From: Jimgerdemannia flammicorona
Taxonomy: Eukaryota
Direction: 5' to 3'
NCBI GenBank assembly: GCA_003990765.1
Contig: RBNJ01000002.1
Coordinates: 60,218 to 80,217 of the forward strand
DNA length: 20,000 nt
Made by a program: the position numbers and the translations under genes. Shown piece after piece: positions 1 to 20,000 of this stretch. Within the stretch, counting starts at the first letter, position 1, and each line of letters begins with the position of its first letter. The notes under the pieces are model-generated. The model was not told where the DNA came from. It made no database searches and was given only the letters and a program-made list of their open reading frames with translations.

Positions 1-161
1 TAAGTTTGTTATAAGCAAGTTCTTATTGGAGTAGTACTCCCAACAAATCAAATCAAATCAAATTTGGCCCAAACTCGATTTGATTCAATCGAATCAAGGG
101 TCTAATTCAATTCGATTCAAATCAAATCAAAGGTCCAATTTAATTTGAAGTTCAATTCAAA

Positions 162-316
162 CCTTAATTTTCAAAATGTAATAACTCGACGAACACTCAT
201 CCAAATTTAACATATTTTAGCTTGTTAGATTCACCATATTAATGTGATTCTAATAAGCTAAAGTATGTTAGATTTGGATGAGTTTACGCTGAGTTATTGC
301 ATTTTGAAAATTAGGG
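162..316. repeat. Central long inverted repeat (hairpin) inside the MITE
   Basis: Arm 162-234 matches the reverse complement of 244-316 (~73 bp, 9-nt loop CATATTAAT). Mismatches are mostly C/T or G/A transitions, plus one transversion and one divergent ~7-nt patch. Confidence 0.9.
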
Positions 317-396
317 TTCGAATCAGACCCTCAATTCAATTTGACTTTTGATTCGATTCGAATTGATTTGAATTGAAAAATCCCCAATTCAATTCG

Positions 397-448
397 ACTT
401 GTTTAACCCTCAATTCGATTCAACTTGTTTAACCCTCAATTCGATTCA
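397..448 (+). repeat. 26-bp tandem duplication in the MITE right subterminal region
   Basis: ACTTGTTTAACCCTCAATTCGATTCA at 397-422 and 423-448. Confidence 0.9.
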
Positions 449-1016
449 ATTCAAATTGATTTGACTTGTTTGGGAGTACTATATTGGAGTACCTTTTCAA
501 GATCTTATAGTCCTCAAACTTCTTATTTTTAAACTGTCTTGTTATCTCTTAGATTGCTCATAAGGAATTTGTATATAAGTGAACCAGAACTGACTTTATT
601 TCAGAGGAAATAAGAGGAGTATTTATACAAAATATAATTCAATAGTTGTTAAGATATAAAGCTAAATATAAATTCTAATAACTAAAATGAAATGTCAGAA
701 CAAGAAAAACTACTAAGTTCCAGGGTCAGTACTGATAGTTATATAGGTTCAGAATGCTGGTATAATTTTGATAGTACAGGAAAATAGTGCTGGAATAATT
801 CAGTGTTATCTCAGAATATCAGTGCTGACATAATTTGGTATCATATCAAAATACCAGTACTGGTATAACTCAGTGTAACTAAAGAACTTCAGAGCAGAAT
901 ATTCAAGACTATAGGGGCTTCATCTTTATCAGAGGTCAGAATGTCTTTGAAGAAGATGAGATCTGCAAATTTATCATTATTGTGTACTTCATGTATATTG
1001 TATAGGATAACATCAT

Positions 1017-2068
1017 CTACTCAGCTCTTCTAGTACTTCTAACAAATCCTCCTTCTTCTCCTCCTCACTTCTCTTCACCCTTATTATCTTACATATAAAG
1101 GCCCCCCACACTATTACTGATGACCAATTATAAGTCTTCTCAATAGCCTCCCTTCTAGTCAGCTGAAGCCAGATATCAATATCTCTTATTCTGAATGAGA
1201 TCCCTTCTCAGATTCAAAACTCAATATTGACTACTTCCTCATACTCAGCCATAATCTCCTCTACTCTTCTCCTCATCTCTATAGTAGTTACTATGGATAC
1301 TCCTTTTATCAGAAGTTGCACCATCCTGAGATCCTATTTTAAGCATCATACCATCAGAATATATATCTCCCCAACAGTCAGCTCTGCCTTCAGTATAACC
1401 TCTAATAGCTTAGCCTCTTTAAAACCCACCTCTACTCCTTTCAAACTCCTTAAAAACTTCACAGATACTATATTATCTATCTGCTTAGCAATTAGCTCCA
1501 AGACTATTTTCACTATCACTACTAAGCCTCAGAAGTACAGAGTGACTATAAACTCCAAGATTGACTTCTTAAGTAATGAGACTATTACCAGGCCTATCAC
1601 ACCATCTACCAGATCCCTCATTCAGCTAGGCCCTATCTTCCTAGCCTTACTATCAGTAGTTATATTTGGATTTTTTTTTTTCAAATTACTAGTTACTACT
1701 CTATTAATAGTTATGCTCCCAGTTACTATACCATCAGCCCTTCTATCAGATACTTCCAAGAGAGTCTCTTCTAGCCTCCCAGCAGCAGCCTTCCCCTTAC
1801 CACTCTATAGCTATCCATCTAGTCTAGCCACCAGACCCCCCTGCTTAATCTTCTTAGCAAAGCTCATCTGATTTCTCCCTGGCTGTATATTACCTCCTCC
1901 TCTACCACTACTGACCTCTCTTTCACTTACCAAAGTACTTGACATCTCCAACCCTACTCTCTGACTCCTCTCTACATGCTGCCAGCTAAATGCACTAGGG
2001 CTACCCTATTTAGTATACTCCATAGAACTCTAATTTGAGAATATGTTCTTAAGATATTTCTCCAAAGA
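1017..2068 (-). mobile_element. 5' fragment (5'UTR plus N-terminal ORF1) of a degenerate L1/Tx1-like LINE
   Basis: Colinear homology to 7815-8850: CTACTCAGCTCTTC at 1017 and ~7815; GCCAGCTAAATGCACTAGGGCTACCC at 1981 vs GCCAGTCAAATGTGCTAGGGCCACCC at 8766. Minus-strand reading from ATG at 2023 gives MEYTK*GSPSAFSWQHVER, with in-frame stops. Confidence 0.8.
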
Positions 2069-2069
2069 A

Positions 2070-3090
2070 TGGTATAAAAGTAGATAATATATATTTATAT
2101 AATATAAAGTATATCAGAAAGAGTTGCTGCTTAAATAATATCTTTAATTATTTACTCAAGCTCTATATCTTGATCTATTTTCTTAGATATAGTTTTACTT
2201 TCTATAGTTACTTCTCTCTATTCTTCTATAGACTTTTCTACTATATTCTTTTTGAGTCTTTCTAGTAGTCTTTTATACAGCTTTTTGTAGATATTCTTTT
2301 TAAATATTAGAGTAGAATAGACATCTTATTTCTGCTCTTTCTCTAAATCTTCAATCTCTTTAAAAGATATAGTAAAAGATATTAGAGAAAGAGATCACTG
2401 TCTAGTCTGAAAGTTTATTATCACTATAGATAAAAAGAGAGATACCTACTATACTTATAGAGAAGAAGATTACTACTCCTATAAATATATAAATAAGATC
2501 AAGCATAAGGCTCAGTTAAGTAATATTATTACAAATTATAAATAGACTAATACTATTACTTCTAAATATAGTTATTTAAGTAAATTTTTTAATAAGTTTC
2601 TTTATAAAATCACTATTCTTCTACTACTCTATAGCTTTTGACTGAGATATATTTTAGTTAATTATAGTTATAGAGATTATACTAGTTATCTTAGATACTT
2701 CTACTCTGACTTTAGTAACTTTCTCTATTATATAGTTTTGAAAATATTTGATTATCTAATATTACTAAGTATAAGTCACCTTTTGTAATAAATTTAGAAC
2801 TATTAGTGATAATTAAATTACTATAACTATCTCTAGGTAAATTTCTTTTATAAAAATTACTTTAATTACTTAATTTTTGATAATCTTAGTATAATCTACT
2901 AAAATTATCTAATAGTAAATTTAGATATAGTATATATATTTAGATCTTTATTTATTTTTTGATAAGTTGTATTGAATTAGTCATTCAGAGTCTACTTAAT
3001 TTTATCTATATAGTATATAGTTTATAGCTAGACCTTCTATACTATTAGTATTATATCATCATTATTTCTAATATAGTTTATAGCTATTGT
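2070..3090. other. Extremely AT/TpA-rich, CpG-free degenerate repeat-derived DNA
   Basis: Dense TATA/TAG/CTA motifs, no CG seen, no ORFs; the original identity is not recoverable by eye. Confidence 0.6.
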
Positions 3091-3099
3091 TAAATATAC

Positions 3100-6000
3100 A
3101 GTCTCTCTTCCACTATCTGATCCCCATAGGGGGGCCCCTCCCTACTCCTATCCAAGCAAAGACTATCTTCTCTCCCACTACTCCTACCCTTCTCCCACTC
3201 TGCCTATAAATTTTCTCCATCAATTGATGCCTCTGATCCCCCTGTATCTCCCAACCAAGCCACCAGCCTATCAATATGTCTTCTATAAGGCTATGCCATC
3301 ACAGCAGCCAGACCTCCAAGCCCAGTCTCCTCTTATCCTTGAAAACAAATAACCAGTATCTGGCCAATCCTACCCAAATGGCCAGAGTCCAGCCTAGCAT
3401 GAGTCATTCCTTTCTCACCCCCCCCACCAGTCTGTCTCTCAAATCCTCCCACCACTCCCATATGCCAGTTCCCCTGTACCTTACTCCCAAATAATCTCCA
3501 ACAGTCTGCCAAAAGTCACTAAGTACCTCACACTCCCCTAGCCAATGTTCAGGCATCTGCATATAACCCCCTACCTGTCTTACATTATAGTACTTCTCAC
3601 ATTCGAAGCAACCTCCCTCAACAAGGTGACCCAAGCAGTAATTGAACATGACATTCCTCCTCAGCATATACCACCAAGTCACCCAGTACTTCAGCAGCAT
3701 CCATCTTCTCACCTCAGCACTCCATGTCCAAATGCTATGCCAGTCCTACTCCTTGCCAATTCCTACACCTTGCCAACCACTGGGCCACAGATTCTGGCTC
3801 AGTCCCCTCTAGCAATCTATCCCATCACTAATGTCAAACTCAAGTAATGGGTTGCCATCCAGCAGTATCTGGTCCTATCTCTATATCCCTGGGTCTCAAT
3901 CTACCTCTTCTTCATTTCTCTGCCAATGGATTCTGATGTAGTGCACCCTCTCTGCTATCCCCCACCAAAAACCTTTGTATCACAATTGATTAGTATTCTG
4001 AAGTCCAACCAAAGATAAGAGATCTCCAGTTGAGCCTCTTGGCGAGGACCTCCTCTTCCAAACCTTCTGCAATAGGGGAACTCAACCACCCCCTCTCAAC
4101 TCTACAGCTCTCTTCAACTACCAAACCCTCAAGCAGTATAGCCTTTTCAGAAAGTCAACCAGTCCCAGTCCACCACTTGCCACTGGTAAGAACAAGACTT
4201 CCTAGCTTATCTAACTCCTCCTTCTAGCCCAGATCTATCTCTTGGCTAGCTTCATTAGTCTCTTCACTACTCAGGATAGAAAGTTCAGATGATACATCAG
4301 ATACCACAACTTCAGTATCCAGTAGATGTTCATAATTGTAACATGCCCTGTCAGAGACAATTGACAGCCCCCCCAACTCTGCAGGGCCTCTCTCCAGATT
4401 CCAACCTACTGCTCCCACTAAAGCCTGAGTAGTACTGACCCATATACTAATAAATAGATACCCAAGTACTGCACTGTCTCACCAGCAGAGACAATTGTTC
4501 CAATAACCTCCCTGCTCACCAGACCATTGCCTAATACTATTGTTTTGCATTTATACCAATTAAGTCTTGCCCCAGAGTTCTCCTCATACCACTCTACTGT
4601 CTCCTTAAGCTTCTCAATATCAGTAATTGATCCCAGTCTGACCACTATATCATCCACAAAGACCCCTACCTTCCACCCAATGCCAAAGATAGAGAGCCCC
4701 ACTATCTTCCACCTGATTCTATCCAGTAGCAGTTCCAGAGAAAGGGCATATAGAATGGGGAACAATGGGTCCCCCTAGAGCACTCCCCTACCCAAGGGAA
4801 ATGCCACCCCTCAATGTCTATTATATATGAGTACCACCCTACTTCCTTCCAGTAGACTGACCATTGCTAACTGGAACTAGTGCAGAACCCTGGTCCTATC
4901 TAAAACTTTTACCAGCCAGACTCACCTCACCTGGTCATAAGTGTTCTCCTGGTCCAAAAAGACCAGGCACCCATCCAATCCACAAGCTTGTGCCCCTTCA
5001 ATAACTCCATGTACCCAGGCTGTGCCATCCCTAATGAGCTATCTCCCTACAAAGCCCCTCTGCTCAATGTCTAAGATTTGCTGTACTACCTTTTGTAGTC
5101 TCACAACCACTATCTTAGTAACCAACTTTCTGTCCATACCCAGAAACATAATTGGTCTCCAGTTCCTCTAGTTCTCTTGCCTTCCTTTGTTCTTATAGAG
5201 CAATGTTACCAACTTCAGATTCTATTCCCCCACCCATCTCTCTGTCTGTAGAATAAGATCACACAATACTGTCATCTCACTCAGTACTCCTGAGATCCTG
5301 ATCATCTTCTTCCAGAAGTCTCAGGGCAAACCATCTTCTCCAGATGTCATACCCAGCATTGTTGCAGCAAGAACCTGGCAGATCTCCTCCTCTTGGACTG
5401 GCAACACCAAGTTGCTCATCCTATCTACTCATGGAGATTGCCAATCTTCTAATATATAGCCAATAGCATTGGCATCTACCCCACTCTCCTTTTCACTCCA
5501 CAATCTACTCCAGTGTATCTTTAAAGATCTAAGAATGTTTTGAATACTATGAACCAGAGTACCATTAGAGTCAAGCACTCTCTCCTATCTTTGTTGCACC
5601 CTCCTCACCTAAAGGGCCCTCATGAGATACTTAGAGGGCCTCTCTCCTTCTTCCAAACCCTACCAATGTAGCCATGCTGCCAAGCTCTACACCCTTGCTT
5701 CTTCCTCCTTCTGCAATACCTGTTATAGTTCACCAACCTTCTTCTTCATCCTTATTGACCTCCAGTTCTCCTCTCCCTCCAGTATTACCAATCTTGCCCA
5801 ATCTCCCAAGAGTCTAGACAGTCTACTAGAAGCCCATCTCACCCTTCACCTCCTCTGTTTCCCAGCCTTCCTGCCAGCCTCACTCCAGTATATCCTGGCT
5901 ATCTCCTTTATTCTCATCCACTGAACACCAACTGGGGCACCTTTCTATCTCCGACACTCTATCTATAGTTGAATGTCTGCAGCCCACCCATTCCACCAGA

Positions 6001-6760
6001 TTCTATCATCTTATCCAATAAGGAGAAATTGAGGTACCAATGTCCAGGCCCATCCCCACTTCCCCCAAACTGTCTCTGTCTGAAAATTCCCCAATGATCT
6101 GACCAAGGACACTATTCCACCTCCAGTGACCTCCAAACATCCATGCCCCAGTAGCTGGCTATCAGAATCCAATCAATTCTTGTCTCCAAGCCCCCTGTCC
6201 AATGTGTGTATACTCTCCTATCCTCTCAGCACTTCCTACCTATATCTACCAAAGCACTCAGCCTTTCCACTTCCTCTCATACTATCAGTCCTCCACTCTA
6301 ACCCTCAGCTTCTTATCCTCTATCTGTCCTGTCTAACAGTACATCTCGAATCATATTAAAGTCTCTACCAAGTATATCTACCCCAGTCTCTGCAAGTATC
6401 TCACTCTCTTAAAGACTCTTCACCCAGTCCACACACTCATCTCATACAGCAGGGCAGTAACAAGAGCCTACTGTGATTGGCTCCTGTCCAGTATATATCC
6501 ACTTGCCCCAGACCAGTCTATTTCCCTAGCTCTACATATCCCTTATCTCCCCTCTGTCTTTTTGTATCAGAATCCCAACCTTGTCCTTCCAAACTACCTC
6601 ACCTCTCCATTCCTTCATCTATTCCAGTTTATCCAAATTATCTTCACACTGAACATTCTGCAAGAGGAAGAGATCAGCCTTCAATCTCTTCAGCCAAGTA
6701 AAAATATTCCTTTATTGAGAAGTACTCTGTAACCTATTTATATTTAGTGAAAAATGTTGG
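3100..6760 (-). pseudogene. LINE ORF2 remnant: AP endonuclease - reverse transcriptase - zinc finger
   Basis: Minus-strand motifs read manually. APE: NIFTWLKRLKADLFLLQ (~6660-6710), ILGRDFN (~6355-6375), TRIDWI (~6165-6183), WSDH (~6095-6105), GPGHWYLNFSLL (~6018-6052). RT: SGEDGLP (~5325-5345), NWRPI (~5150-5165), EQRGFV (~5048-5065), FLDQENTYD (~4933-4960), RGVL*GDPLFPILY, FVDD (~4650-4660), SGARLN, QYLGI. C-terminal CFEC...EHWLGEC (~3530-3610). Confidence 0.92.
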
Positions 6761-6789
6761 TTATACTATTTATATTAAAGTATGGTGTG

Positions 6790-8810
6790 TTTATCCAGTC
6801 TATCTCTACTGCTCTAAGTTCATCTCTTCCTATACCATGTCCAGATTATATTCTGCAGTCACTGCCTCCTCTTCAGCCCTCTGAGCCTCCAATCCAGCCA
6901 ACAGCTCATTCATCTCACTATCTGCCTTCTTCTCAAACTCCTCTCAGTACTCCAGACAGGCCTCCTGCCAGAGCTACAACCCATGTTACTTGGCCCAACA
7001 GTACTTGGCCCTCTCACTGGCAACTCCTGCTAGTTTGGCCTCCTACTCCTTATCCACCTTATACTCTTTCTCCTCTAGATATACTACAAGGATCTCTGCC
7101 TTCAATGCCAACTCTACACCATCTCTCTGTATTACTTGCACCCACTGTTCATCACTCATTACCCTCAAGTCCACCTCTCCCAGCTCTTCAGCTATCAGGT
7201 TATTCATCATTCTGCACATCTATAGTAGATTTTCTACTTCCTTCTCTCCTGGGGTTGCTGGTCTTCTACTATCCAATATTGTGGTATCAGCCCCAGCACT
7301 TACAGCCTCATCCTACACCTCCAGAACATCTACCAATTTCTCCTCTCCAACTGCCACCACCTGTCCCTCATTCACTACCTCAGGAATACTAAATTACACT
7401 CACTGGGCCCCCTTCATTGACACATCCTCTCCTACTCTGCTCTAGAAAGCCAGCCCTTACCTGATGAGAGGAGTAGGGATAGGTGATCCCTCCCAGTCCT
7501 CCTCTCAGACCTTGAATGTACTATCAGTATACATGTTGCCACTGGCTGCTTTTCTGTCCTCCTCTGTTCCTTTCTCTGCACTCTCATCCATCTCACTGGC
7601 CCAGACACTCACCCTGGCACCCCCCAGTTCCACCATTCCACCTACCTCCTTCTGTGGTCAACTTTCCATCTTAGCCAGTAGCTCCTTCTGATGCTTATGG
7701 CTCTGAGCTTTTTCCCATTGCCCCTTGTCTATTCTAATTCTCTTTCCATCTACCACCTCTAAGTATGTTGACTCTACAAAAGCCCTCCAAGCCTTTGCTT
7801 ACTGCTCTACCACTCTACTCAGCTCTTCCAGTATCTACAGCAAGTCCTCTTCCTCCTCTTTGCTTCCCTTCACCCTTGTCACCTTGCATAAGATTGCCCC
7901 CCAGACTATTACCGAAGGTCAGTCCCTTGTCTTCTCTGTAGCTTCTTCTCTGCCAGCTAAATCCACACATCCATATCTCTAGTCCTGAGTGAGGTCTCTT
8001 CCCAGACTCTGAACCTGATATCTACTACCTTGCCATACTCCACCATAACCTCCTTGACTCTCCTTCTCATCTCTACTATCATCACTGTAGGTACTCCTTT
8101 TACCAGCAGTTGGACTACCCTGGGGTCCTATTTCAGACAGCATGCTATTAGAATACACATCTCTCTAACAATCAATCTAATCTTCAGTGCTTTCTCCAGA
8201 GGCTTGGTCTCCTCAAAACCCACCTCTACTTCCTTCAATCCCTTTAGAAACTTCATGGATACTGCTCCAGCCACCTACTTAGCAATAAGCCCCAGTACTA
8301 TTTTCACCATTACTACTAGTCTCTGAAAGTACAACATCACCATGAATACCAAGATTAATTTCTTAAGTAACAGCACCACCACTAGACCTATTACACCATC
8401 TACCAAATCTCTCTGCCTTCCAAGCCTCAGTTGCTCAGCCATACCATCAGCTATCATATTTGGATTTTTTTCCAGATTGGTAGTCTTATCACTATCAGCC
8501 ATCACACCCCCCCCAGCCACTACTCTCCCAGCTCCACTGCTCTCACCCCCAAGCACTACTCCCCTGCAAACTATCATCATCTCCATCTCCTTGCCTTTTC
8601 TCAGTCAACCCTCCAACTTTGTTATCTGCTGTCTCTCCTTCACTATCTCTGTGAAGCTCATCCTCTCTGATCCCTGTCCTCTACTGCCACCTCTCCCTCC
8701 TCCTCATCCTCTTGCCAACAACCCCCTCATGCTACCCCCCAGGCCAGGACCTCTCTCCACCTACTGCCAGTCAAATGTGCTAGGGCCACCCTGCTCAGTA
8801 TACACTCTAG
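6790..8810 (-). pseudogene. LINE ORF1 remnant (RRM-like nucleic-acid-binding protein with G/R- and E-rich low-complexity parts)
   Basis: Lies upstream of the APE domain. Reads YTEQGGPSTFDWQ*VERG at the 5' end and VQLLVKGVPT...VKEVMVEYGKVVDIRFRVW (~8000-8115), resembling L1/Tx1 ORF1 RRM regions. Homologous to 1017-2068; interrupted by stops. Confidence 0.7.
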
Positions 8811-9164
8811 AATACTTGCTGTTTGCTATTTTCTTATCACCTTTCTCCAATAAATGACTTGAGAGTATATTGTAAAGTATATGTAATGTAAATATTAGCT
8901 GAGAAAGGTGTGAAGAACTTGAATATAGTTCATAGCTATGAATATAGCTCTTATAGAACCTTGAAGGCTAAATAATATAAGAGCTACTTGTTATACTAGT
9001 AATAGAGTTCTTATAGTAATATATTGCTCAAAATTATTAAGAAAGTAATAATTAATTCATCAGATATATATTTATAGAATACTGATAGTCTTATATCTAC
9101 CTTGTTTAGATATCTTGATTTGATTTAAATAGATATTTAAATAGTAGTAGTTATTCATTATTTA

Positions 9165-10327
9165 ATACCTCTTTCAATACTACCTTACCAGTCATAAGAT
9201 TTGGTAGGTGACCTTCTGAGTCCCCTTTCCCCTAATATTACTCCCTCTACCTTGGGTTGGTTTGCTGTGCCTGCAGGGGCATGGTGGGAGGAGGGCAATA
9301 GTGATGAGTTGCCCCTTTATCAGTATCAGATTGGTACTTCCTCCACTTTTTTGCAGATTCTAGTACCTTCAGCTACATCTGGGGTATACCCATTTTGGTG
9401 TAGCACCTTCTTCCTTTTACCATTGTCAATAAGGTGTGTATCTCAGGCTACATAGGGAGTCAGCTAACCTTGGGCATCAAGTACTCAGTATAGGTTACCT
9501 GCAGGTCTTCAGTGCCTATAGTGAGGCCCTCTGGCTTTGGTGAGCTTCCTGGCGAGCATGGTTCTGGTGTAGGTGACTGCTTTTCAGGTGTTGTTGGGAT
9601 GGGAGGAGAGATGGCTATCACAGATAGATAGAAGGATAATAACAGTGAATCAGTAGGGTATCAGGCTGGGAGTGGTCATTGGGGCTGGGACAGATGCTGC
9701 TTCAGTAGGGCCTTTTGATTGATGCGGTATGGTTAGATGGTAGGTGTCACTCTCAGCTTCTTTTGGTGGTCAGCAAGGTTGGGCCCCAGTCGTCAGAGGG
9801 GGTCAGGGGGCCTGAGGCTACCCATTTCAGGCATCTTGGCTGCACTCAACTGGAACTGAGAGCTGACATAGCAATGTGATCGAGGCCTACAGACTTGAGT
9901 AGTGGGGTATTGGGGACTTCCTCCTGTCTCATATATAAGTCCTTTACTCATCTTGACTGGGAGAACCAGGCCCTACTCACTGTATTGTGCTTTGATGAGA
10001 GTTTTTCTTTGCCTATCATTCTCTTTGGGGTGATAAGGGCTATTCTATTTGGCTCGAGCATAGCCTTGTACATATATTGGGTTCTTGGGTATGTACTTTC
10101 AGTCATTGGCATATAGTTGGATTTCCCCTAGTAGTAGGGAGAGCATGGTGTGCAGAATGAGATACAGACTACTATAGGCCCTGCTATACCTAGCATGGTC
10201 GAGCTACTGGACAATAGCTAGTCTAGATTAATGGGGGGGCAGTGCTTAGTGGGTAATGGGAGAGGGTTTTGGTCTATATAGTCTAGGTTCTCTTCCAATA
10301 AAATTCCATGGGATATGAGTCCATTAA

Positions 10328-10375
<48 letters not shown>
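9165..10375 (+). mobile_element. Poly(A)-tailed retrotransposed insertion (5'-truncated non-LTR element or retrocopy) with 15-bp TSD
   Basis: 46-nt poly(A) at 10330-10375; AATAAA at 10297-10302; direct repeat GTTATTCATTATTTA at 9150-9164 and 10377-10391. GC is higher than in the AT-rich flanks. Confidence 0.85.
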
Positions 10376-10377
<2 letters not shown>

Positions 10378-10391
10378 TTATTCATTATTTA

Positions 10392-11070
10392 GCTTAAAAG
10401 TGAGAGATTTATCTTAAATTACTGATTAATAGATACTAAGTTATAATATAGTAGATACTTAATCTTAGAAATATAGCAGATTTTTTTATCTTAAATATTT
10501 AACTTTTTAGAGTTCTCAGAAATATAAGAGTGAGTAAGTTCAAAGTATATATATTTGTCTGTAGACTTACTAGTTCTCTTATCTCTTTACTTTGAACTAT
10601 TGAGATTTATTTACTCTATATAGATACTTGAAATATTTATATAAGTTTGCTAACTATATAGTAACTAAGTTAGAACTTCTTTTTCTATAAGTTATTTCTT
10701 ATAATTGTGAAATCTATATCTGTATAATTCTTATAATTGTGAGTTTTGCACAAGTACAATTATATAAATCATATAATTGTGAGATCAGATAACTACTAAC
10801 TATAATACTATATATATTATATCAGAAATTAGATTCAGGTACTGTAATCAAATATCTATTCTTCTGATTCTTGTTCCTAATTTGGATCAACTGTCACACT
10901 AGTAAATAATATATATTTAAAAATTTTACTAATTTAAGTATTTATAATATATATATTGATTAGATATTTTTTATAATAATTATTATATAACTATTAATAT
11001 ATAATATACATTTCAAATATAAATAAATAAAATAATATTTACTTATAATATTTATGTATTATTATAAACT
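10392..11070. other. Very AT-rich degenerate DNA with short repeated TATAATTGTGA motifs
   Basis: No CG seen until ~11072. TATAATTGTGA at ~10700, ~10732 and ~10772, plus inverted ACAATTATA at ~10757. 10900-11065 is almost pure A/T. Confidence 0.55.
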
Positions 11071-11144
11071 GCGTGCTGTGGTTTCTTTGAGATTTGAAAG
11101 TAGAGTTGATATTGTTCATGATAGGATTTGGAATAGGAGAATTG

Positions 11145-11363
11145 GATGATGATGACCCAGAATGGCGATGATGAAATAACGATAATGGAATGGTGATAAT
11201 CCCAGAATGGCAATGACAGACTAAATATAAATGATGACCCAGAATAGCGATGACAAACTAAGTGCAGAACAGCAATACTAACGATGACAGACTATGAATG
11301 ACGACTTGATGACGATGACAATGACGGACTATGAATGACAACTTGATGATGATGACAATGACG
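11145..11363 (+). repeat. GAT/GAC-rich low-complexity repeats including a 37-bp tandem duplication
   Basis: Recurring ATGACCCAGAAT(G/A)GCGATGA-like units; GACTATGAATGAC(G/A)ACTTGATGA(C/T)GATGACAATGACG at 11290-11326 and 11327-11363. Confidence 0.8.
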
Positions 11364-11407
11364 GAATAAGTTGAACAGAGGTGGGGTCAGTGACAGGGAA
11401 TAGATAA

Positions 11408-11816
11408 CTGGAATGCGGTGAGCTGGAAAGCTGGAATGCGACGAGCTGGAATGCGACGAGCTGGAATGCGACGAGCTGGAATGCGGCGAGCTGGAATGCG
11501 ACGAGCTGGAATGCGGCGAGCTGGAATGCGGCGAGCTGGAATGCGGCGAGCTGGAATGCGGCGAGCTGGAATGCGACGAGCTGGAATGCAAGAGATCGAG
11601 CAGCGAGTTGCAAGGCTAATACTTACGAAATTGCTGGAATGCAGCGAGCTGGAATGCGGCGAATATGGCGAGCTGGAATGCGGCGAATACGGCGAGCTGG
11701 AATGCGGCAGCTGGAATGCGGCGGCGAGCTGGAATGCGGTGAGCTGGAATACGGCGAGCTGGAATGTGGCGAGCTGGAATGCGGCGAGCTGGAATGCGGT
11801 GGGCTGGAATACGGCA
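11408..11816 (+). repeat. 15-bp minisatellite CTGGAATGCG(A/G)CGAG in two blocks
   Basis: Ten contiguous near-perfect units at 11431-11580 plus partial flanking units. Second, more variable block at ~11633-11816 with 12-, 15-, 18- and 24-bp variants. No unique spacers. Confidence 0.95.
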
Positions 11817-12359
11817 GTAGCCAGGGTTGATAGAATAGCTTATTAAAGGGATCAGATTTCATTTGCACATTGAAATTTTGTCCACCAATTATGTCATTTT
11901 CAACTTTGAGCGCACGTCCAGGGTTAGGAGGTCCAATTTTAGTGACTCACTCTTTTACACCATTACAGATAACGAACGAAGGTGTGACGTCGTATTTGTT
12001 AACACAACAAGTACCAACCTAGTAGGTGCGGAGATCTGTCAGTATAGCAATAAGCAAGATTGTGAATCTAGCTGAATCTAGCGACATTCAATTTTGAAAT
12101 AGGTAAGGTGGATGACCGACAATCAGTTAAAACATTTAATGTTATTGGTCAATTTGATCAGCTAAACTGAAAGAAGTATCGAGTTGAAAATGGAAAGAGT
12201 CTGTGACATCAACATTATCATCCAACAGATTTGGAATAATACCTGATGACGCACTTGTCCAAAAATAAAATTCCGTCTTAACTTTGAACGCATCTAATAT
12301 GACCCGTCAGGCGATCAAACCCTCCGTTCTCTGTCATCTTGTCCAAACCTCCCTCCAAG

Positions 12360-13529
12360 ATGTCTCTCGAAAATGGCAAAAAATCCGACGAGTGAGTGTG
12401 CCTTTTTATCGGTTTTGTGCAAATCCCACGCGCCCTGATATTCGCCAATTCTCACCACCCAACAGAGACATCCGCGAACACGGTTTCATCTCCAAACGCT
12501 CCAAAATTCACATCGTTCTCTCCGGAAGTGAGACTGAGGAAGAAGCTCGCGCCGCTGAGTTTCTCCCCGTTATCCCTCCGTTCCCGGCAAAGACCATGAG
12601 CTTCCACGAGGAGCGCCTCCGTCGCAAGCATATGCTCGCCGCTGGGTTCAGGCTGTTTGCCAAGTTTGGATTTGATACAGGTACGTGCGAAGGCATCTAG
12701 AAGAAGCCTCGCCATAGAATCAGATCAGCAATTTTTTCTTGTCCATGGAACGCCTTGAATGTTGCTTACGCGATTTCGCACGCCCTCTCCACACAGGTGT
12801 TGCCGGCCACATGACCTGCCGCGATCCCGAGTTTCCCGAGCTCTTCTGGGTGAACCCCTTCGGCATGTATTTTGGTCATATCAAGGCCTCTGACCTCGTC
12901 CTGGTCGACCACGAAGGTGAGCTCGCCCGCGGGACCTGCGCCGTGAACAAGGCCGCCTTTGCCATCCACTCGCAGGTTCATGCGGCGAGGCCAGACGCCA
13001 TTTGTGCGTGCCACAGGTATGTTTTAACTTCCTTTCGGGTTTTCCGTTTCCGGATCCTGATTCTCACAAACACCTTCTCCCAACCACCAGCCACTCCATG
13101 TACGGCAAGGCCTTTTCCTCGCTCGGCCGCCTCCTCCTCCCCATTACGCAAGACGCCTGTGCCTTCTACGAATCGCACGCGCTCTTTGACGACTACGCGG
13201 GAGTGGTGTACTCGACGGACGAGGGGGCGCGGATTGCCAAGGCGCTGGGCCCGACGAACAAGGCGGTGATCCTGCGTAACCACGGGCTGTTGACGGTGGG
13301 CACGACGGTGGCCTCGGCCATCTGGTGGTTCGTCTCCATGGAGCGGTGCGCCCAGGCCCAGCTGATCGCCGAGCAGGCTGCCATCAACGGCCACAAAGAC
13401 CTCATCACCATCGATCATGACATGGCCAGGGCCGCCCACGATATCATCGGTGTCGAGCAGACGGGACAGTTCAGCTTCCAGCCCATGTATCAGATGATTG
13501 TGAGGGACCAACCAGATTGCTTGGAGTAG
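12360..13529 (+). CDS. Class II aldolase/adducin N-terminal domain protein (mug14/NovR-like subfamily), 301 aa, 4 exons
   Basis: Exons 12360-12391, 12466-12680, 12797-13016, 13091-13529, all GT-AG, total 906 nt in frame. Motifs: [61 protein letters not shown], metal-binding CHSHS and ILRNHGLLTVG. Confidence 0.93.
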
Positions 13530-13786
13530 AGGGCTTTCTAATCTTTGAGATATTCAAGTCCTCCTTGTACATATTATTCTCGTCCAGACCTTAGCGATTT
13601 CGTAAGTCGCTTTCAAAGAAGCTAATAAAATTATATAGTAACTAACGCAAATACCTAAGATTCAACAAAGGTTCATCCAATAGAGACACAAAGTCCGTGG
13701 AAGCGTTTGTCTACGTCATCAAGTTCTAAATCAAAACAAAACCATTTCGAATTACCCTTCAACGCCTCCCACTCCAGTCACCAGCA

Positions 13787-15389
13787 ATGTCCGACAAACG
13801 GAAAGACCCGCCCTCCGCTGTGAGCACTGTCGTCAAGCGCCAGCGACAGGAAGACGATCAGCCCGCTGCTTCAACTGCCCTTACAACAATAAATGCTCCC
13901 GGCTCTTCCGCCGTGAGCATTGTCGGAACGGTACGCCATTCGAGTCTTTCCACCCCCTATTGGCCTGTTGAGGTCGACCAATTCATGACCAAATAATGTC
14001 TTCCTGATGGTTTTGCAGATCAAGCGGACATCGGGCCTTCAAGCTCCCATCATGTTGCTTTCCGGCCACGGGGTATGCCGTATTTCTTGTCTGTGCATTG
14101 TTGATTCTGAAATCTACCGCGCTTACGGCTCCCTTTTAACTGTTTTCTCTCCTCAGGGCGACGTCTTCTCTTGCAGGTTTGATCCCAGCGGCCAACACAT
14201 TGCCTCGGCTGGCTTTGATCGACAAATTCGTACGTTTTCGAAAATTTTAACTGTAATTGAATACACTGCATTTTCTCGCTCCAAAATTAAAAATAATATG
14301 AAAATCCTGGCCGCGGTAGTGTTATGGAACACCTACGGCGATTGCGTTAACTACGGCCTAATCAAGGGACACACAGGCTCCATCATGGAACTCAACTGGT
14401 CTCGTGATGGCAGGTATAATTCAACTCGATATTCATTCCTATTTTTTTGACCGTATTTCATATGCTCGAATATTCATCATTTCGCACAATTTTGGAAAAT
14501 TTTCTGTAGTCACATCTTTACCTGCTCGACGGACAAGACCCTGGGCCTCTGGGACGTCGTCACGGGTCAGCGTGTCAAGAAGTTCAAGGGACACACCTCG
14601 TTCGTGAACAGCTGTTCACCGGCAAGGAGGGGCCCCGAGATCTTGGTGAGCGGAGGAGATGATGGATGTATCAAGGTATGACGTCCCTGAGGTCTGGTAC
14701 GAGGTGGAAGGCTGAATTGGTATGCTTTGAATTGAATCCTGATGTTTTTCTGACAACCCTGTCTTGTACATCCTCTCCTTTCTTATAACCAAATCCAAAG
14801 CTCTGGGACCAGCGCGAGAAGAATGCAGTTGACACGTTCCAAAACAGATACCAGATCACAGCGGTTTGTTTCAGCGACGCCGGGGACATCGTGTTCGCGG
14901 GCGGGATCGACAACGAGATCAAGGTATCCTTTCGCTATCTGTTGCCCCGTCGATCTTCACCTTATGTACCTGTGGTCCGCGTGTTGCCAATATGCATTCG
15001 ATATCCAATTTTTACAGGCGTGGGATTTGCGCAAGAAGGACGTCGTGTACTCGCTCAAGGACCATTTGGATACCATATCGGGTATCAGGCTGAGTCCCGA
15101 CGGGTCGCTCTTATTGAGCGATGCGATGGATAATACCCGTATGTGATAACATTGTTTTTTTGTGGTGGGATTTCGGGGGGCTTTTGGCATCAGCGATGTG
15201 GGTGGGAATATCGGTAATTGACGTAAGCTTTCAATATCTATTTATTCGTCACAGTGCGGATTTGGGACGTAAAGCCCTTCGCACCAGCCAACCGGTGCAT
15301 GAAGGTATTTGAAGGTTAGCAAAACCATCTCGTTCTTTTTGCGATTTTCGTCTCGATGCTGCCAAGTTCTGACCTCCACGGGCTTCCTC

Positions 15390-15425
<36 letters not shown>

Positions 15426-15685
15426 GAAATTCTACAGGCGCCCCCCACGGCTTCGAGAAGAATCTTATCCGTCCCACCTGGTCTCCCGACGGAACGCAAA
15501 TCGCCGCCGGCTCCGGCGATCGCACTGTGGTGGTGTGGGATGTGCCATCGCGGAGGATTCTATATAAACTGCCTGGGCACAAGGGATGTGTCAACGACGT
15601 GGATTTTCATCCGCGCGAGCCCATTTTGGTATCGGGCAGCACGGATCACATGCTGTTTTTGGGGGAGATTAATCCGTCAAAGTAG
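13787..15685 (+). CDS. SNRNP40: U5 snRNP 40 kDa WD40-repeat protein (SNRNP40/WDR57; fission yeast Spf38/Cwf17), 360 aa, 9 exons
   Basis: Exons 13787-13930, 14019-14072, 14157-14229, 14320-14413, 14510-14675, 14801-14923, 15018-15138, 15255-15314, 15438-15685, total 1083 nt in frame, all GT-AG. Diagnostic RTSGLQAPIMLLSGH, LWNTYGDCVNY, HGFEKNL, RRILYKLPGHKGCVNDVDFHPREPI. Confidence 0.95.
15394..15424 (+). repeat. Intronic poly-T tract (similar tracts at ~18723-18754 and ~19353-19367)
   Basis: Homopolymer T runs just upstream of 3' splice AG sites in SNRNP40 intron 8 and in GTPase introns. Confidence 0.85.
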
Positions 15686-16041
15686 CGACGAAGGCGTATG
15701 TATGTGGCGGTTGTGTGGTTGAGTTCGATGTAGATGGCGGTGTTTAGACGAGGTATTGGGGGGAGGAACTTGACGTTTCGCTACCTGCGACAGGTTCTCA
15801 AAATTTATATCTTGCCATTTGGGTCCACTGTTGCCTCGATTCGTTTGCTGATAATCAGTTCTCTGTACATTATAAATGAGTGGACGAAGAATTCCGGAGG
15901 GATACGACTACACATTTAGCTATGATGTTCCGCCTTCCCTTGATGCCACTGGGGACGATAGGAGAAATGAAATTATGATTGTGGCGTAGGTAGTTTGCAA
16001 TGGGCTGGTTGACGGTGGAGGCAGTTGCATTGGCAGAGGAG

Positions 16042-16063
16042 AAAAAAAAAAAAAAAAAAAAAA
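16042..16063 (+). repeat. Intergenic poly(A) tract (22 nt)
   Basis: Homopolymer run; no flanking TSD found. Confidence 0.8.
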
Positions 16064-16787
16064 AGGATTAATCAATGCAACCGGAGTTTTAGCTCACTGA
16101 TCCACTTGTTCGGTTTCTCCATGAAACCCACCGCAAATGTTGGTTCGCACCGCAGACATCATTCAACCCCACGGTTTTTATCGGATCTCTTTCATTTCAC
16201 AATCGTTATAGTCGCTTGTGGCCGAGTTCTGCGCATCTGCGAGCGCATCTGCGAGCGCGACAAGTCCAGGATGTCATGGTTTATGGTTTCAGTCAGCAAT
16301 GTGTTTAGTGACATATAATATCTTACAAATATTCATCGTGCATCACAGTGAGTGATGGGTAAAGCAAACGGCTGATATATTGTCGGAAAATAAGGAAATG
16401 ATGACGGTGTGTGTAAATGCAGATAATAGGATCTTCACAATCAGCATACTAATTGATGGCCTCAGTTACTGATGGATGGATGGATGGTCTGCTACTCACC
16501 GCCTCATAAAGCCCAATATGACGGTGATTAAATCCTCAATATAATTATTTCAACAGGTCCTTGTATCAATAATACGCAGATCACCGTTTGCCAAGCTTTG
16601 GACTGTGATCACCTGCATGGGATGGGCTCTACATCCCATTTAAATTACTTTTTGAGTCTATTAGCCCAATACATCGAATTGGATTGGAGCTTAATATAAA
16701 GATTAGTCAGATGGTTCACTATCGAGAGAGGAATAAGAGGAAAACGGGGACTATAGCTTCGTTCTTTCCTTAAACAATTGCAACAAA

Positions 16788-18719
16788 ATGCTCAATAGCG
16801 AAGGGGTGAGCTGACCGACAGCCACGAGAAATCTATTGACCTACCTATTTTTCGTGAGAACATCGCTTCCTTCTTACCGACTCTTTTATCCTGCATTCTG
16901 GCAAACCTCCGCATGTAGGTCAATGGCGACCTTCCTCCACTTACGCCAATGACTGTAGAAAAATATACGGTCGCGTTGCGAGGTCATCTTAAGAAAATCG
17001 ACGAAGCGATCGAAAAGCACCGATTCGCGTCGAAGAATAGATCAAAACAGTTTCGTGAGGCGGTCCAGGAAATCATCGGGAGATTGCACCTCGGCAAAGT
17101 CGAAATTGCCGTTGTCGGAGATGCCGGGGCAGGTAAGATGTACCGCCGCATTCCATACGTTTCACGCATTGTATCTGATTTGCCGTCGCCTTTTCTCGAG
17201 TGCAGGGAAGACGTCCTTGTTCAACGCCCTTCTTGACATTGAGCACTTCATGCCAACCAGCAATGGAGGGTACGTATGTCCAAGATGATGATTATTTACG
17301 CCGGGGTGAGGTGTTCTTCTCTTGGGCCTTGGCGTCCTCCCAAAACTCAGCCACGAGCAACCTCACGACCTTGATGTGCCCAGTCTGCACGGTTTGATGA
17401 AGCGGCATTCATCTGTCGTTTGCTTTGATAATAATACCAACTGTCTCTGTTTAATTTGTTTGTTTCTTATGCGATCTCAGGGCCTGCACTTCTTCAGTGA
17501 ATGTGATTTCCTACAACTGTGAAGACTCCAGCTTTGTTTGCGATCTGAAATATAAGTCGAAAGAAGAATGGGAAAAAGAATTGGAATTGTACTTCGATTT
17601 TCTAAAAGACGAATGTGGCAATATTGTTAAGTCATTGGAAGATTCAGATCAAAGTATGCATAGTTGATATTTTGCCCCCTGATATCATTGAAACGACGTT
17701 GCTAACCACCCACAACATAAACATTTTCCCATCACCACTATATAGAGGACTCTGCTTCAAAATTGCGGACAGTCTTTGGACTTCCGTCGGATCACACAAC
17801 ATGGGTATTTGAACAGCTGCGTAAGGATGAACGTGTGAATGAATTGCTCGGTAGAACAAATTCTTCTATGAGAAAAAAAGCGCGCTTGTTTTCCACCACG
17901 CTAAAGCAAACATTGAAGGCCCCGGTAATTAAAGTACGTATTCTGAATCAGCTTAGAATAATGCAGACGTATTGCTCACGAAAAACATAATCGGATTTCG
18001 TTCCTAGGACCCCACTCGTGATTATACTCTGCTTATAAAAGAGGTCCATATCCGAGGGCCTTTCGAAATTCTGCGTTCCGGAGCCATACTTGTTGATTTG
18101 CCTGGTGTTGGGACCACGGACGCCATTACTTCGGCTGTTACCTGCAACTATCTGAAGTCTGCTAAAGCTTTCTGGGTTGTGCATGATATCTTGAGGTATA
18201 CTTACAAGGCTTAAAAAGCGAAGATGTGGCTCTTTTCAATCTCGGAACTGACTTTTTTTTTTGTTTAATTTACAGGGCGGCAGATAATCAAAATGCGCGA
18301 AATCAACTTAAAGAGAGTTTTAGACGAAGGGTGAGAATTTTCATTATCGAGCCCTGTAATGCTCTCCTCTGTCCTCCCCTTCACCTCCTCTTCTCTTTTG
18401 TTGAATGGAGATGGAAAGCAATCAATTCTCATGCAATGTCTATTATACCTGTATGTTTAAGGTGTTCATGGACAATCAATTACGGTCGGTCGCTTTCGTG
18501 TGCACAAAAACGGACCAGTGTGAGCCTGATGCCGATGATGTCCAGTTAGACTCGGATCAAGAGGATGATGACATGAGCTGCGATGAGAATAGCTCTACGG
18601 AGGATAATGGAGAATACCTGGCAAGGATTGCGAATGCAAGAAATATTTCAACAGTTCAAAAGATTAGGGATAATTTCAGAGCGATTCAACAAGGTACGTT
18701 TTTGTGCTTTGTCACTAAG

Positions 18720-18754
<35 letters not shown>

Positions 18755-20000
18755 CATTACAGAGGTGTTGGAGGGCAAACAACAGCCGTTTGACGATGAG
18801 GAACTGCATGTCTCGTGTGTCAGTTCGCGAGATTACTTTTCTCTCCGTAATAAAAACAGGTGACTCGTCAAAGAGAGGGATGTCTATGTTGCAAGTTTTG
18901 AAAGATACCATTCTTACAATTTACCATCTCATAATCTAGGAAACCTCGCAGGCCACCGACTTTCACTGACATTCAAGACACCGGAATAATTCAGCTTCGA
19001 GAATTTATTGGACGACAGACAGAAAATCGCGTTAGAATCATTTTCAACATTCTCCGTCAGGATGAACAAATCCTTCAAACCATGTTGAACTACATCGCCT
19101 TCAACAGGAAGCTTGGACTTGACAGTGAATATCGGCGCTCCTTGCAAACTGCCTATCAAGAGTCCCTTAGTGAGTTCCAGGCCAGCATTAAAGCCTTGAT
19201 GGCACAGAAACTCGACGCTATGAATGAAATCTTCGACAAGTTTCAGGAGAGCTTGATCGAACCGGTCGCCACAGCTCAAAGAGAAAGTTTACGTAATATA
19301 ATCCAGGAGAGCGACAAGGTATCGATAATTTTATGATCTTACACTTGACGCATTTTTTTTTTTTTTTAATACTGCAGTCAATAATCATTTTTTATACACC
19401 AAAGTTGAGATGGAATACATTCAAAGCGGGTACGTTTAACTAGTAATGATAATATTCTTTGAGGAGTTTTGATGTGCTCATAGCCGGAATAATGAATATC
19501 ACTCCAGTTTGCCGCAATAATGGCAAGTACGAAAGCAAAATAGGAGGCGAGGAAGGAGGCATACGCGTAATCGACTTTAACAATGTACGTACATAAGCGG
19601 TACATGCCCGTTCTTGCATGTTGATCACATTGTAATTCCCCTTTTGACCTCTGACTACAGGCTCTGGCTCGACCGCTGCTGGTAATGATATTGTTTCATT
19701 ATCGCTTTGATCGTCAATGTCAAAAATCCTCATCCATCTCCCTCTCTCTCTCACTATTCAGAATAAGCTCGCTAATCGTTGGTTCTCAAACACAATATGG
19801 AAGTTCCTAAAAGCCTTCAAGCAATTGAGTAAAGAGACGACGCAAGTATTTGAAGATGGATTAAAAAAGATTGGCGCCAAAATTCGGGCTGAGGATGTCC
19901 CTGAAGAATGCCTTCAGGACTTGAAAAGTCAATTCTCAAAGGTTGTCATCGAGGAGGTAATGATTTTTATTTTTATTTTATTTTATTTATTATTATTTGG
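16788..20000 (+). CDS. Nuclear GTPase SLIP-GC (NUGGC)-like dynamin-family GTPase, 3'-incomplete
   Basis: Predicted exons 16788-16805 (start exon less certain), 16919-17132, 17206-17269, 17481-17653, 17746-17933, 18008-18195, 18276-18330, 18462-18693, 18763-18859, 18940-19318, 19378-19429, 19508-19584, 19661-19681, 19762-19956; all GT-AG and in frame. G1 GDAGAGKTSLFNALL, G2 PTSNGGACTS, EEWEKEL, G3 LVDLPG, RAAD, G4 FVCTKTD, VSSRDY, DTGI, WNTFKAVCRNNG, DFNNALARP. Confidence 0.85.

What the first reader, a model, noticed from the sequence alone, without database searches (positions are those of the whole stretch)
490..11070. RIP-like hypermutation of repeats with a sharp boundary, in an apparently non-Dikarya fungus
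Seen: near-total CpG loss and strong TpA enrichment over ~10.5 kb, with CpG returning abruptly at ~11070. Conserved motifs are broken by transitions on both strands: GVxQGD has CAG>TAG; ILGGDFN reads ILGRDFN (GGT AGA, compatible with GGC GGA via CG>TA); FADD reads FVDD; YDRV reads YDQV. CG>TA needs a second, non-CpG (CpA/TpG) hit. Established: RIP is characterised in Ascomycota (CpA) with RIP-like patterns in some Basidiomycota. Inference: a repeat-targeted methylation/deamination defence, in a lineage (Mucoromycota, if that guess holds) where I am not aware it is well characterised.
Basis: partly seen in the sequence, partly recalled or inferred. Interest (0 to 1): 0.7.

Follow-up and report, generated by a model that had tools for sequence, protein, structure and literature searches.

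The report
Transposon-confined cytosine decay in Endogonales fungus
In this early-diverging mycorrhizal fungus a nest of dead transposons is steadily losing cytosines to thymine (fastest before G, then A, C and T) while the genes next door are untouched, which looks like the scar of transposon-targeted DNA methylation more than classical repeat-induced point mutation, a pattern not yet described for this fungal group in the papers searched.

Summary
Real, but not shown to be RIP. Window 490-11070 holds 11 CpG against 418 expected; genes beyond 11900 hold 442 against 425. It is a nest of transposons of Jimgerdemannia flammicorona (Endogonales); the edge is the end of the last repeat (11059). 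In copies of three families, C>T hazards run CpG >> CpA > CpC > CpT in similar ratios (CpG 7-9 times CpA, 200-420 times T>C). So the non-CpG excess is confirmed. Against classical RIP: CpG dominates, standard RIP indices mostly fail, hits show no strand clustering, and in a two-copy 7.3-kb segment 136 CpG transitions fall on one copy of each arm, 2 on the other. The genome encodes two DIM-2-like and one DNMT1-like methyltransferases; no RID-like gene was found (weak search). Best reading: locus-directed methylation followed by gradual deamination; an enzyme-driven DIM-2 mutator is the main rival. No methylation was measured. This scan already noted the same pattern on other pieces of this genome (8 notes seen); the one-sided duplicate is new here. 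A published kingdom-wide screen lists this species as 'no_rip'.

The parts
32..481 (.). Young MITE with terminal inverted repeats and an 8-bp target duplication (24-31, 482-489; hAT-like by TSD length, label recalled); family caught in mid-decay, 468 of 1,107 CpG site-copies kept
490..1049 (.). Fragment of an older dispersed repeat, 0 CG
   Evidence: 9 matches in 8 fetched loci at 71-86%
1050..2085 (-). Fragment of an older LINE 5' part (ORF1 region), about 71% like 7845-8471; 0 CG
2119..3087 (.). Old AT-rich repeat, first piece (21% GC, 0 CG, composite RIP index 0.91); joined to 8924-9164 and 10377-11059 in other copies
3088..8923 (-). Dead LINE (endonuclease and reverse transcriptase motifs, many stops), 16-bp target duplication at 3072-3087 / 8924-8939 differing by one CA/TA change; 5 CG against 308 expected
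   Evidence: (RVT_1, E 1.6e-6, just under the curated cut-off)
8924..9164 (.). Old AT-rich repeat, second piece
9165..10376 (+). 1.2-kb poly(A)-tailed element (SINE-like or truncated LINE), 15-bp identical target duplication at 9150-9164 / 10377-10391; copies keep 5-39 of 72 ancestral CpG sites
10377..11059 (.). Old AT-rich repeat, third piece (19% GC, 0 CG); its end is the boundary
11060..11820 (.). Flank: short tandem arrays (37-bp and 15-bp units) that keep CpG; their few unit differences are mostly C>T/G>A, a hint of slight leakage
12595..13529 (+). Class II aldolase/adducin gene, CpG normal (control; used for taxonomy)
   Evidence: second intron bridged by a contig
13788..15685 (+). U5-40K (SNRNP40) gene, CpG normal (control)
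16930..20000 (+). Intron-rich gene with a P-loop-like motif, no close copy found in the genome, CpG normal (control); family not identified

Best explanation
Transposon DNA in Jimgerdemannia is marked locus by locus with 5-methylcytosine, heavily at CG (DNMT1-like enzyme, perhaps also the DIM-2-like ones) and more weakly at CA > CC > CT (two DIM-2-like enzymes). Methylated cytosines turn into thymine one at a time, on either strand, over long periods, most simply by spontaneous deamination with poor T:G repair. Young insertions are half converted, older ones have lost all CpG and go on losing CpA and CpC until they fall to about 20% GC. Shown: spectrum, independence of hits, confinement to repeats at this edge, one-sidedness of a duplicate, presence of the enzyme genes. 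Inferred: methylation itself, which enzyme makes which context, and that the last step is passive.
For: Per-cytosine hazards CpG/CpA/CpC/CpT and T>C rate: MITE 0.43/0.047/0.019/0.007 and 0.0013; poly(A) element 0.68/0.10/0.051/0.011 and 0.0016; LINE 1.44/0.164/0.105/0.045 and 0.0073. Ratios stay similar and decay ranks with nesting order. TA share at converted CpG fits constant-rate sequential hits (0.034 vs 0.027; 0.066 vs 0.060; 0.110 vs 0.110). TG/CA outcomes are not strand-coordinated (concordance 0.491, 0.529, 0.494 against permutation nulls 0.493, 0.515, 0.508); simulation gives 0.55-0.58 for ten one-strand rounds. Non-CpG co-hits 0.99-1.09 of expectation at 6-1,600 bp. Two-copy segment, 7,277 sites: CpG transitions 136 vs 2, CpA 38 vs 12, CpC 13 vs 11, CpT 6 vs 6, 43 transversions. 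Enzymes: C8187 product best matches PDB 9BAQ/9BAP (E 6e-39; DIM-2, name recalled) over DNMT1 (1e-25), C11271 likewise, C3657 matches DNMT1/MET1. Zymoseptoria Dim2 methylates CHH in the order CA > CC > CT (PMC8016269, S8 legend). Phycomyces, with DNMT1 plus Dim-2, has mCG 2.2%, mCHG 0.3%, mCHH 0.5%, mainly in repeats (PMC7862722).
Against: No methylation data. CpG change is 200-420 times T>C, far above what I recall for mammals (about 10-20); passive chemistry reaches this only if T:G repair is nearly absent, and a TDG-like gene is present, although the fission-yeast orthologue cannot excise T opposite G (bioRxiv 10.1101/2023.03.07.530818). In Zymoseptoria heavily methylated CG is hardly mutated while CA is, so mutation need not follow methylation. 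Within families C>T load does not track background substitutions (Spearman 0.09, 0.03, -0.27) and correlates only weakly with the state of the flanks. In the oldest family the TA share (0.36) is below the model's 0.57, on 7 sites. The two-copy segment is a single case.
Confidence: 0.5

Rival explanations
1. Same heterochromatin targeting, but the C>T step is enzyme-driven: the DIM-2-like proteins (or a partner deaminase) act as a RID-independent mutator, in mitosis as in Zymoseptoria or before meiosis as in the DIM-2 branch of Neurospora RIP, in many weak rounds.
For: Very high ratio to background; flanking-base preferences RCA > YCA and CAY > CAR in all three young families; two DIM-2-like genes. 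DIM-2 RIP needs no RID and spreads into single-copy DNA (bioRxiv 10.1101/115501), which fits the decayed copy that is joined to a LINE. Mitotic Dim2 mutagenesis is shown in Z. tritici.
Against: Both precedents are strongly CpA-specific (>98% of C>T at CA in Z. tritici; 'very strong preference for CpA'), whereas CpG leads 7-9 fold here. No clustering. Flanking preferences can equally come from the methyltransferase.
Confidence: 0.27
2. MIP-like: repeats are found by homology pairing before meiosis, methylated to their exact ends, and then decay slowly.
For: Boundary within about 15 bp of the repeat end; sharp edges at four other loci; CG preference and methylation coextensive with the repeat are the MIP marks listed in PMC4165359.
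Against: Pairing should mark both copies; the two-copy segment is hit 136 to 2. No Masc1/RID-like gene found (weak).
Confidence: 0.12
3. Classical RIP: RID-type, pairing-triggered, premeiotic, here with a shifted CpG preference.
For: Repeat-confined C>T on both strands with a real CpA excess; oldest pieces reach RIP-type indices. The strand test cannot exclude 50 or more weak rounds. An unmutated copy could have come in from a parent that lacked the duplicate.
Against: No one-strand clusters (91.9% of Neurospora clusters are one-strand, PMC7296669); copies hit 136 to 2 where RIP hits both alike (3,163 vs 3,153; PMC3017866); CpG-led; all three DNMT1-family genes found resemble DIM-2 or DNMT1.
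Confidence: 0.05
4. Ordinary AT-biased decay of unselected DNA, with no targeting.
For: Dead elements are unselected; C>T is often the commonest neutral change (established).
Against: The clean copy of the two-copy segment, itself frameshifted, has 2 CpG transitions among about 440 sites at the same age; DNA right of 11900, introns and spacers included, has CpG o/e 1.04.
Confidence: 0.02

Closest known systems
CG hypermutation of transposons in Basidiomycetes and 'some lower fungi' (Clutterbuck 2017; only the title and citing passages seen; paper not held)
   Same: CpG deficiency tied to transposon content, in non-ascomycete fungi.
   Different: Here a measured non-CG series (CA > CC > CT) is added; whether that paper covers it, or Endogonales, I could not check.
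Dim2-dependent methylation and mitotic C>T mutation of repeats in Zymoseptoria tritici (PMC8016269, passages)
   Same: DIM-2-like enzyme, repeat targeting, non-CG order CA > CC > CT.
   Different: There CG is methylated but hardly mutated and >98% of C>T is at CA; here CG is the main target.
DIM-2/DIM-5/HP1 branch of RIP in Neurospora crassa (bioRxiv 10.1101/115501, passages)
   Same: RID-independent, heterochromatin-related, can reach single-copy DNA next to repeats.
   Different: Premeiotic, homology-triggered and strongly CpA-specific; none of these shown here, and the context differs.
RID-dependent RIP of Pezizomycotina (PMC7296669, PMC3017866, passages)
   Same: C:G>T:A transitions concentrated in repeats, ending in AT-rich relics.
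   Different: CpA-led, one-strand clusters, both copies hit; all three tested here and not met.
MIP of Ascobolus and the MIP-like methylome of Tuber melanosporum (PMC4165359, passages)
   Same: CG preference, marks coextensive with the repeat, very transposon-rich mycorrhizal genome.
   Different: Tuber shows no marked CG>TG or CA>TA enrichment by index; here loss is near total; Masc1-type gene not found; one-sided duplicate.
Repeat methylation in Phycomyces blakesleeanus (PMC7862722, PMC13297926, passages)
   Same: Same subphylum, DNMT1 plus DIM-2, CG > non-CG, on repeats.
   Different: Measured methylation there, mutational scar here; a scar of this depth is not described in the passages read.

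Membership tests
Classical RIP | C:G>T:A transitions confined to repeated DNA | tested here: met
Classical RIP | CpA is the preferred target | tested here: not met
   CpG hazard 6.7-9.1 times CpA in three families
Classical RIP | Mutations clustered on one strand per round | tested here: not met
   excludes about 10-20 rounds or fewer, not 50 or more
Classical RIP | Both copies of a duplication are mutated | tested here: not met
   136 vs 2 CpG and 38 vs 12 CpA transitions; one segment; allele or paralogue not settled
Classical RIP | RID/Masc1 gene present | tested here: inconclusive
   searches found only DIM-2-like, DNMT1-like and DNMT2-like loci; no RID query was available, one search missed C11271, assembly in 35,354 contigs
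Classical RIP | Occurs before meiosis | not testable with these tools
   needs crosses
Classical RIP | Index thresholds TpA/ApT > 2 or substrate < 0.7 | tested here: not met
   met in 1 of 7 repeat pieces of 490-11059 (2119-3083, substrate 0.46); whole span 1.11 and 1.22
MIP | Mark ends with the repeat | tested here: met
   repeat ends 11059, first CG 11072; but one duplicate copy is hit over several kb beside a LINE
MIP | Homology-triggered, both copies marked | tested here: not met
   read through the mutational scar only
Dim2-linked repeat mutagenesis (Zymoseptoria; DIM-2 branch of RIP) | DIM-2-type gene present | tested here: met
   (best-hit and domain evidence, no tree; one middle exon of C8187 hit DNMT1 better)
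Dim2-linked repeat mutagenesis (Zymoseptoria; DIM-2 branch of RIP) | Mutation almost only at CpA | tested here: not met
Dim2-linked repeat mutagenesis (Zymoseptoria; DIM-2 branch of RIP) | Depends on the dim-2 gene | not testable with these tools
   needs a knockout or enzyme assay
Methylation-linked CpG decay of fungal transposons | CpG-led, gradual, site-independent C>T in transposons | tested here: met
Methylation-linked CpG decay of fungal transposons | 5mC on the affected DNA | not testable with these tools
   no methylome; one search found no suitable run

The most novel reading that the evidence does not exclude
Endogonales carry an active, RID-independent, DIM-2-type mutator that converts cytosines in heterochromatic repeats at CG >> CA > CC > CT. 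It would be the surviving ancestral form of the heterochromatin branch of RIP, older than the Dikarya, acting locus by locus and not through pairing.
Probability: 0.25. Interest if true: 0.75.

Novelty: new variant of a known kind. Interest (0 to 1): 0.48.

Why it matters
Reviews and a 1,239-genome screen hold RIP-like signatures to be confined to ascomycetes; that screen's table lists J. flammicorona as 'no_rip', and early-diverging fungi are described as having near-undetectable 5mC. This genome nonetheless destroys cytosines in transposons hundreds of times faster than it makes other substitutions, with a DIM-2-type context order, and it still carries a very large repeat load. It offers a direct test of whether repeat mutagenesis began as a by-product of DNMT1/DIM-2 methylation before RID and pairing were added: one methylome compared with the context hazards given here decides between passive and enzyme-driven change. 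It also warns that dating transposons by divergence, and index-based RIP calls, mislead in this lineage.

Tried and rejected
Standard RIP indices: not met over the span. The MITE as a repeat that escapes: rejected, 58% of its CpG site-copies are already converted. UV-type CC>TT: adjacent co-hits are 0.44 of expectation. CHG-type methylation: CCG, CAG, CTG are not raised (0.056, 0.117, 0.050). Non-CpG hits spreading from CpG sites: no trend with distance. Flank state as predictor of decay: weak, 2 of 6 correlations at p about 0.045. Second isolate: one soil run with share 0.08; 3 short contigs, no differences, uninformative. Searches with SNRNP40's last exon (protein 6) and 102 used a wrong frame and mean nothing; one search is the right frame. 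No SNRNP40 or methyltransferase tree was built. A close paralogue of the third gene was not found. RID and DNMT5 could not be queried directly. PMC7928374 and PMC10386755 (passages) say nothing on repeat mutation in Endogonales.
Full report
Observation. The span 490-11070 has 11 CG against 417.5 expected from composition, and 11900-20000 has 442 against 424.9. The last CG on the left is at 10200, the next at 11072. TpA is higher than in the genes (o/e 1.10 versus 0.64), but TpA/ApT is 1.11 and the composite RIP index -0.10; only the oldest AT-rich pieces score clearly positive. The depleted block is far longer than the finding: 70 of 71 one-kb bins from the start of contig C2 to this edge have CpG o/e of 0.24 or less, and the nine bins after it have 0.88-1.16. 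Of the four motif readings three hold. ILGRDFN comes from GGT GGA by one CpA-type hit, not from GGC GGA (24 copies).

Organism. The aldolase exon's best hit is Bifiguratus, then Mucorales and Umbelopsis. A methyltransferase exon from the same genome is 100% identical to proteins named Jimgerdemannia flammicorona. The WD40 gene's last exon matches U5-40K. No tree was built.

Anatomy. The block is a nest. An old AT-rich repeat (2119-3087, 8924-9164, 10377-11059; contiguous in other copies) is split by a LINE (3088-8923, 16-bp target duplication) and by a 1.2-kb poly(A) element (9165-10376, 15-bp duplication). A MITE with an 8-bp duplication sits at 32-481, and a copy of it lies inside a LINE copy in L027. 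Similarity to other copies stops at 11059 among the 40 scored of 3,075 candidates, 13 bases before the first CG. Four other edges are also sharp at 100-200-base resolution and one (L166) is more stepped. The short tandem arrays right of the edge keep their CpG, though most unit differences are C>T or G>A.

Spectrum. I aligned the best-matching copies: 24 of 30 fetched LINE loci (6 dropped for alignments under 3,400 bases; 40 scored of 7,217 candidates), 30 MITE (of 2,184 candidates), 30 poly(A) element (of 6,286) and 20 old-repeat copies (of 3,075). This favours copies close to the window's. A column was called C or G if three copies kept it; non-CpG columns with more than 60% T were left out (80% for the old family); without that filter LINE rates are CpA 0.174, CpC 0.119, CpT 0.090. 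Per-cytosine hazards CpG/CpA/CpC/CpT, with the T>C rate: MITE 0.43/0.047/0.019/0.007, 0.0013; poly(A) element 0.68/0.10/0.051/0.011, 0.0016; LINE 1.44/0.164/0.105/0.045, 0.0073; old repeat CpG saturated, 0.85/0.65/0.18, 0.016. A purine before, and a pyrimidine two bases after, raise the CpA rate in all three young families.

Gradual, not in bursts. The share of converted CpG that has gone on to TA matches independent constant-rate hits (0.034 vs 0.027, 0.066 vs 0.060, 0.110 vs 0.110); the old family, on 7 sites, falls short (0.36 vs 0.57). Neighbouring TG/CA outcomes are no more alike than in permutations (0.491/0.493, 0.529/0.515, 0.494/0.508). Simulated one-strand rounds give 0.55-0.58 for ten rounds and 0.51-0.52 for fifty, so a few processive rounds are excluded but many weak ones are not. 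Non-CpG hits in the LINE co-occur at 0.99-1.09 of expectation from 6 to 1,600 bases and show no per-copy strand skew (p 0.15). In Neurospora 91.9% of RIP clusters are one-strand (PMC7296669, passages). Against a simple clock: within families CpG, CpA and CpC loads rise together (Spearman 0.29-0.81) but do not track private background substitutions (0.09, 0.03, -0.27), so copies differ in intensity and not only in age; flank composition explains little.

A one-sided duplicate. An ankyrin-like piece in an intron of the third gene led to a segment present at above 90% identity in two copies only, among 40 scored of 162 candidates: C8331 versus C21487 on one side of a 1.1-kb contig, C13137 versus C16487 on the other. 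Over 7,277 aligned sites CpG transitions are 136 on the decayed copies and 2 on the clean ones, CpA 38 and 12, CpC 13 and 11, CpT 6 and 6, with 43 transversions and no strand runs. C8331 runs into CpG-free LINE DNA where C21487 runs into CpG-normal DNA; the loss is even along the 2.85 kb, without a gradient. Pairing-triggered RIP hits both copies alike (3,163 and 3,153 mutations in bioRxiv 10.1101/115501; PMC3017866). Caveats: it is one segment; alleles and paralogues cannot be told apart; that the two decayed arms lie on one molecule is inferred; a clean copy might have come in from a parent without the duplicate; and the DIM-2 branch of RIP does spread into single-copy DNA. The clean copy, itself frameshifted, is also the control showing that unselected DNA does not lose CpG by default.

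Enzymes. The Pfam search gave four matches of 8 candidates: two halves of a DNMT2-like gene (label from recalled motifs), C8187 and C3657; protein queries added C11271. The C8187 product has RFD-like, DUF7893, BAH-like and methylase domains (RFD and BAH below their cut-offs) and best matches PDB 9BAQ/9BAP, E 6e-39 against 1e-25 for DNMT1 (that these entries are Neurospora DIM-2 is recalled). One middle exon alone matched DNMT1 better. C11271 also matches 9BAQ/9BAP best; C3657 matches DNMT1/MET1. No RID-like gene was seen, but there was no RID query and the assembly is fragmented; PMC8298701 (passages) states that RID and DNMT5 are lost in Mucoromycota outside the AMF. A TDG-like gene fragment is present.

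Mechanism. The best reading is locus-directed methylation and slow deamination (0.5). The order CA > CC > CT is that of Dim2 CHH methylation in Zymoseptoria (PMC8016269, passages), and Phycomyces, with DNMT1 plus Dim-2, has mCG 2.2% and mCHH 0.5%, mainly in repeats (PMC7862722). Is passive chemistry enough? Half-lives for C and 5mC in duplex DNA are given as 30,000-85,000 years (PMC3978516, passage). That is plausible, and fission-yeast TDG cannot excise T opposite G. An enzyme-driven DIM-2 mutator remains open (0.27); MIP-like 0.12; classical RIP 0.05; untargeted decay 0.02.

What is known. CG hypermutation of transposons in 'some lower fungi' is in print (Clutterbuck 2017; title and citing passages only; paper not held). 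Index-based RIP-like signal was reported in Entomophthorales with caveats (PMC11105155, passages). Badet and Croll 2025 (abstract, sections 8, 9, 16, supplement rows) find RIP-like signatures only in ascomycetes and list this species as 'no_rip'; their contrast of repeats with non-coding DNA has little power where most non-coding DNA is repeat (inference). Searches gave no paper describing this spectrum in Endogonales; subscription papers, Chang 2019 and Bewick 2019 among them, were not seen, and supplements other than those of PMC12543289 were not searched. This scan has noted the same pattern on other pieces of this genome (460 notes fit the look-up, 8 shown); they agree but are not independent evidence. 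A word search for a one-sided duplicate among them found none.

Verdict. A real, repeat-associated C>T hypermutation in a non-Dikarya fungus, with a true non-CpG component. It works like methylation-linked decay with a DIM-2-type signature and fails three tested features of RIP. New variant of a known kind; interest 0.48.

Noticed in passing
G000:C8331:1-2851 vs C21487:1-2839; C13137:1-4702 vs C16487:1-4571 (L163, L137, L197, L196): Two-copy segment with a broken ankyrin-repeat gene; CpG transitions 136 on one copy of each arm versus 2 on the other.
   Followed up: yes
window 17315-17430: A lone ankyrin-repeat-like piece inside an intron of the third gene, 72-92% like many ankyrin arrays elsewhere; it keeps its CpG.
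   Followed up: partly
window 11408-11817: 15-bp tandem array (about 26 units) right of the boundary, 44 CG kept; role and copy number elsewhere unknown.
   Followed up: partly
LINE alignment: Same-strand non-CpG hits one base apart are 0.44 of expectation and two bases apart 1.49; unexplained beyond context effects.
   Followed up: no
MITE alignment: Three CpG sites in or near the MITE's central spacer are kept in 25-27 of 30 copies while most arm sites are kept in about 12; context or protein protection.
   Followed up: no
G000:C8187 and C11271: Two DIM-2-like paralogues (34-51% identical in matched stretches); reviews list one per genome for Phycomyces.
   Followed up: partly
G000:C58:1-1500 and C2181:1-800: DNMT2-like gene split over two contig ends, flanked on both sides within about 1 kb by CpG-free DNA.
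   Followed up: no
G000:C34337:2-235: TDG/MUG-family glycosylase gene fragment at a contig end; no UNG match came up in the same search (2 candidates scored).
   Followed up: partly
L167 (C2305) and L169 (C624) first 2.5 kb; C2 218-4218, 23218-33218, 53218-59218: Stretches with intermediate CpG o/e (0.1-0.5), probably younger repeat families in mid-decay.
   Followed up: no
L163 (C8331) 7412-8930, minus strand: Next to nothing checked: LINE family about 67% like the window's, sharing 74-80% with flanks of MITE loci L050 and L073.
   Followed up: no
L035 (C8187) 7333-9125, minus strand: Neighbouring gene that reads like a tubulin-tyrosine-ligase family member (recalled resemblance, not tested).
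   Followed up: no
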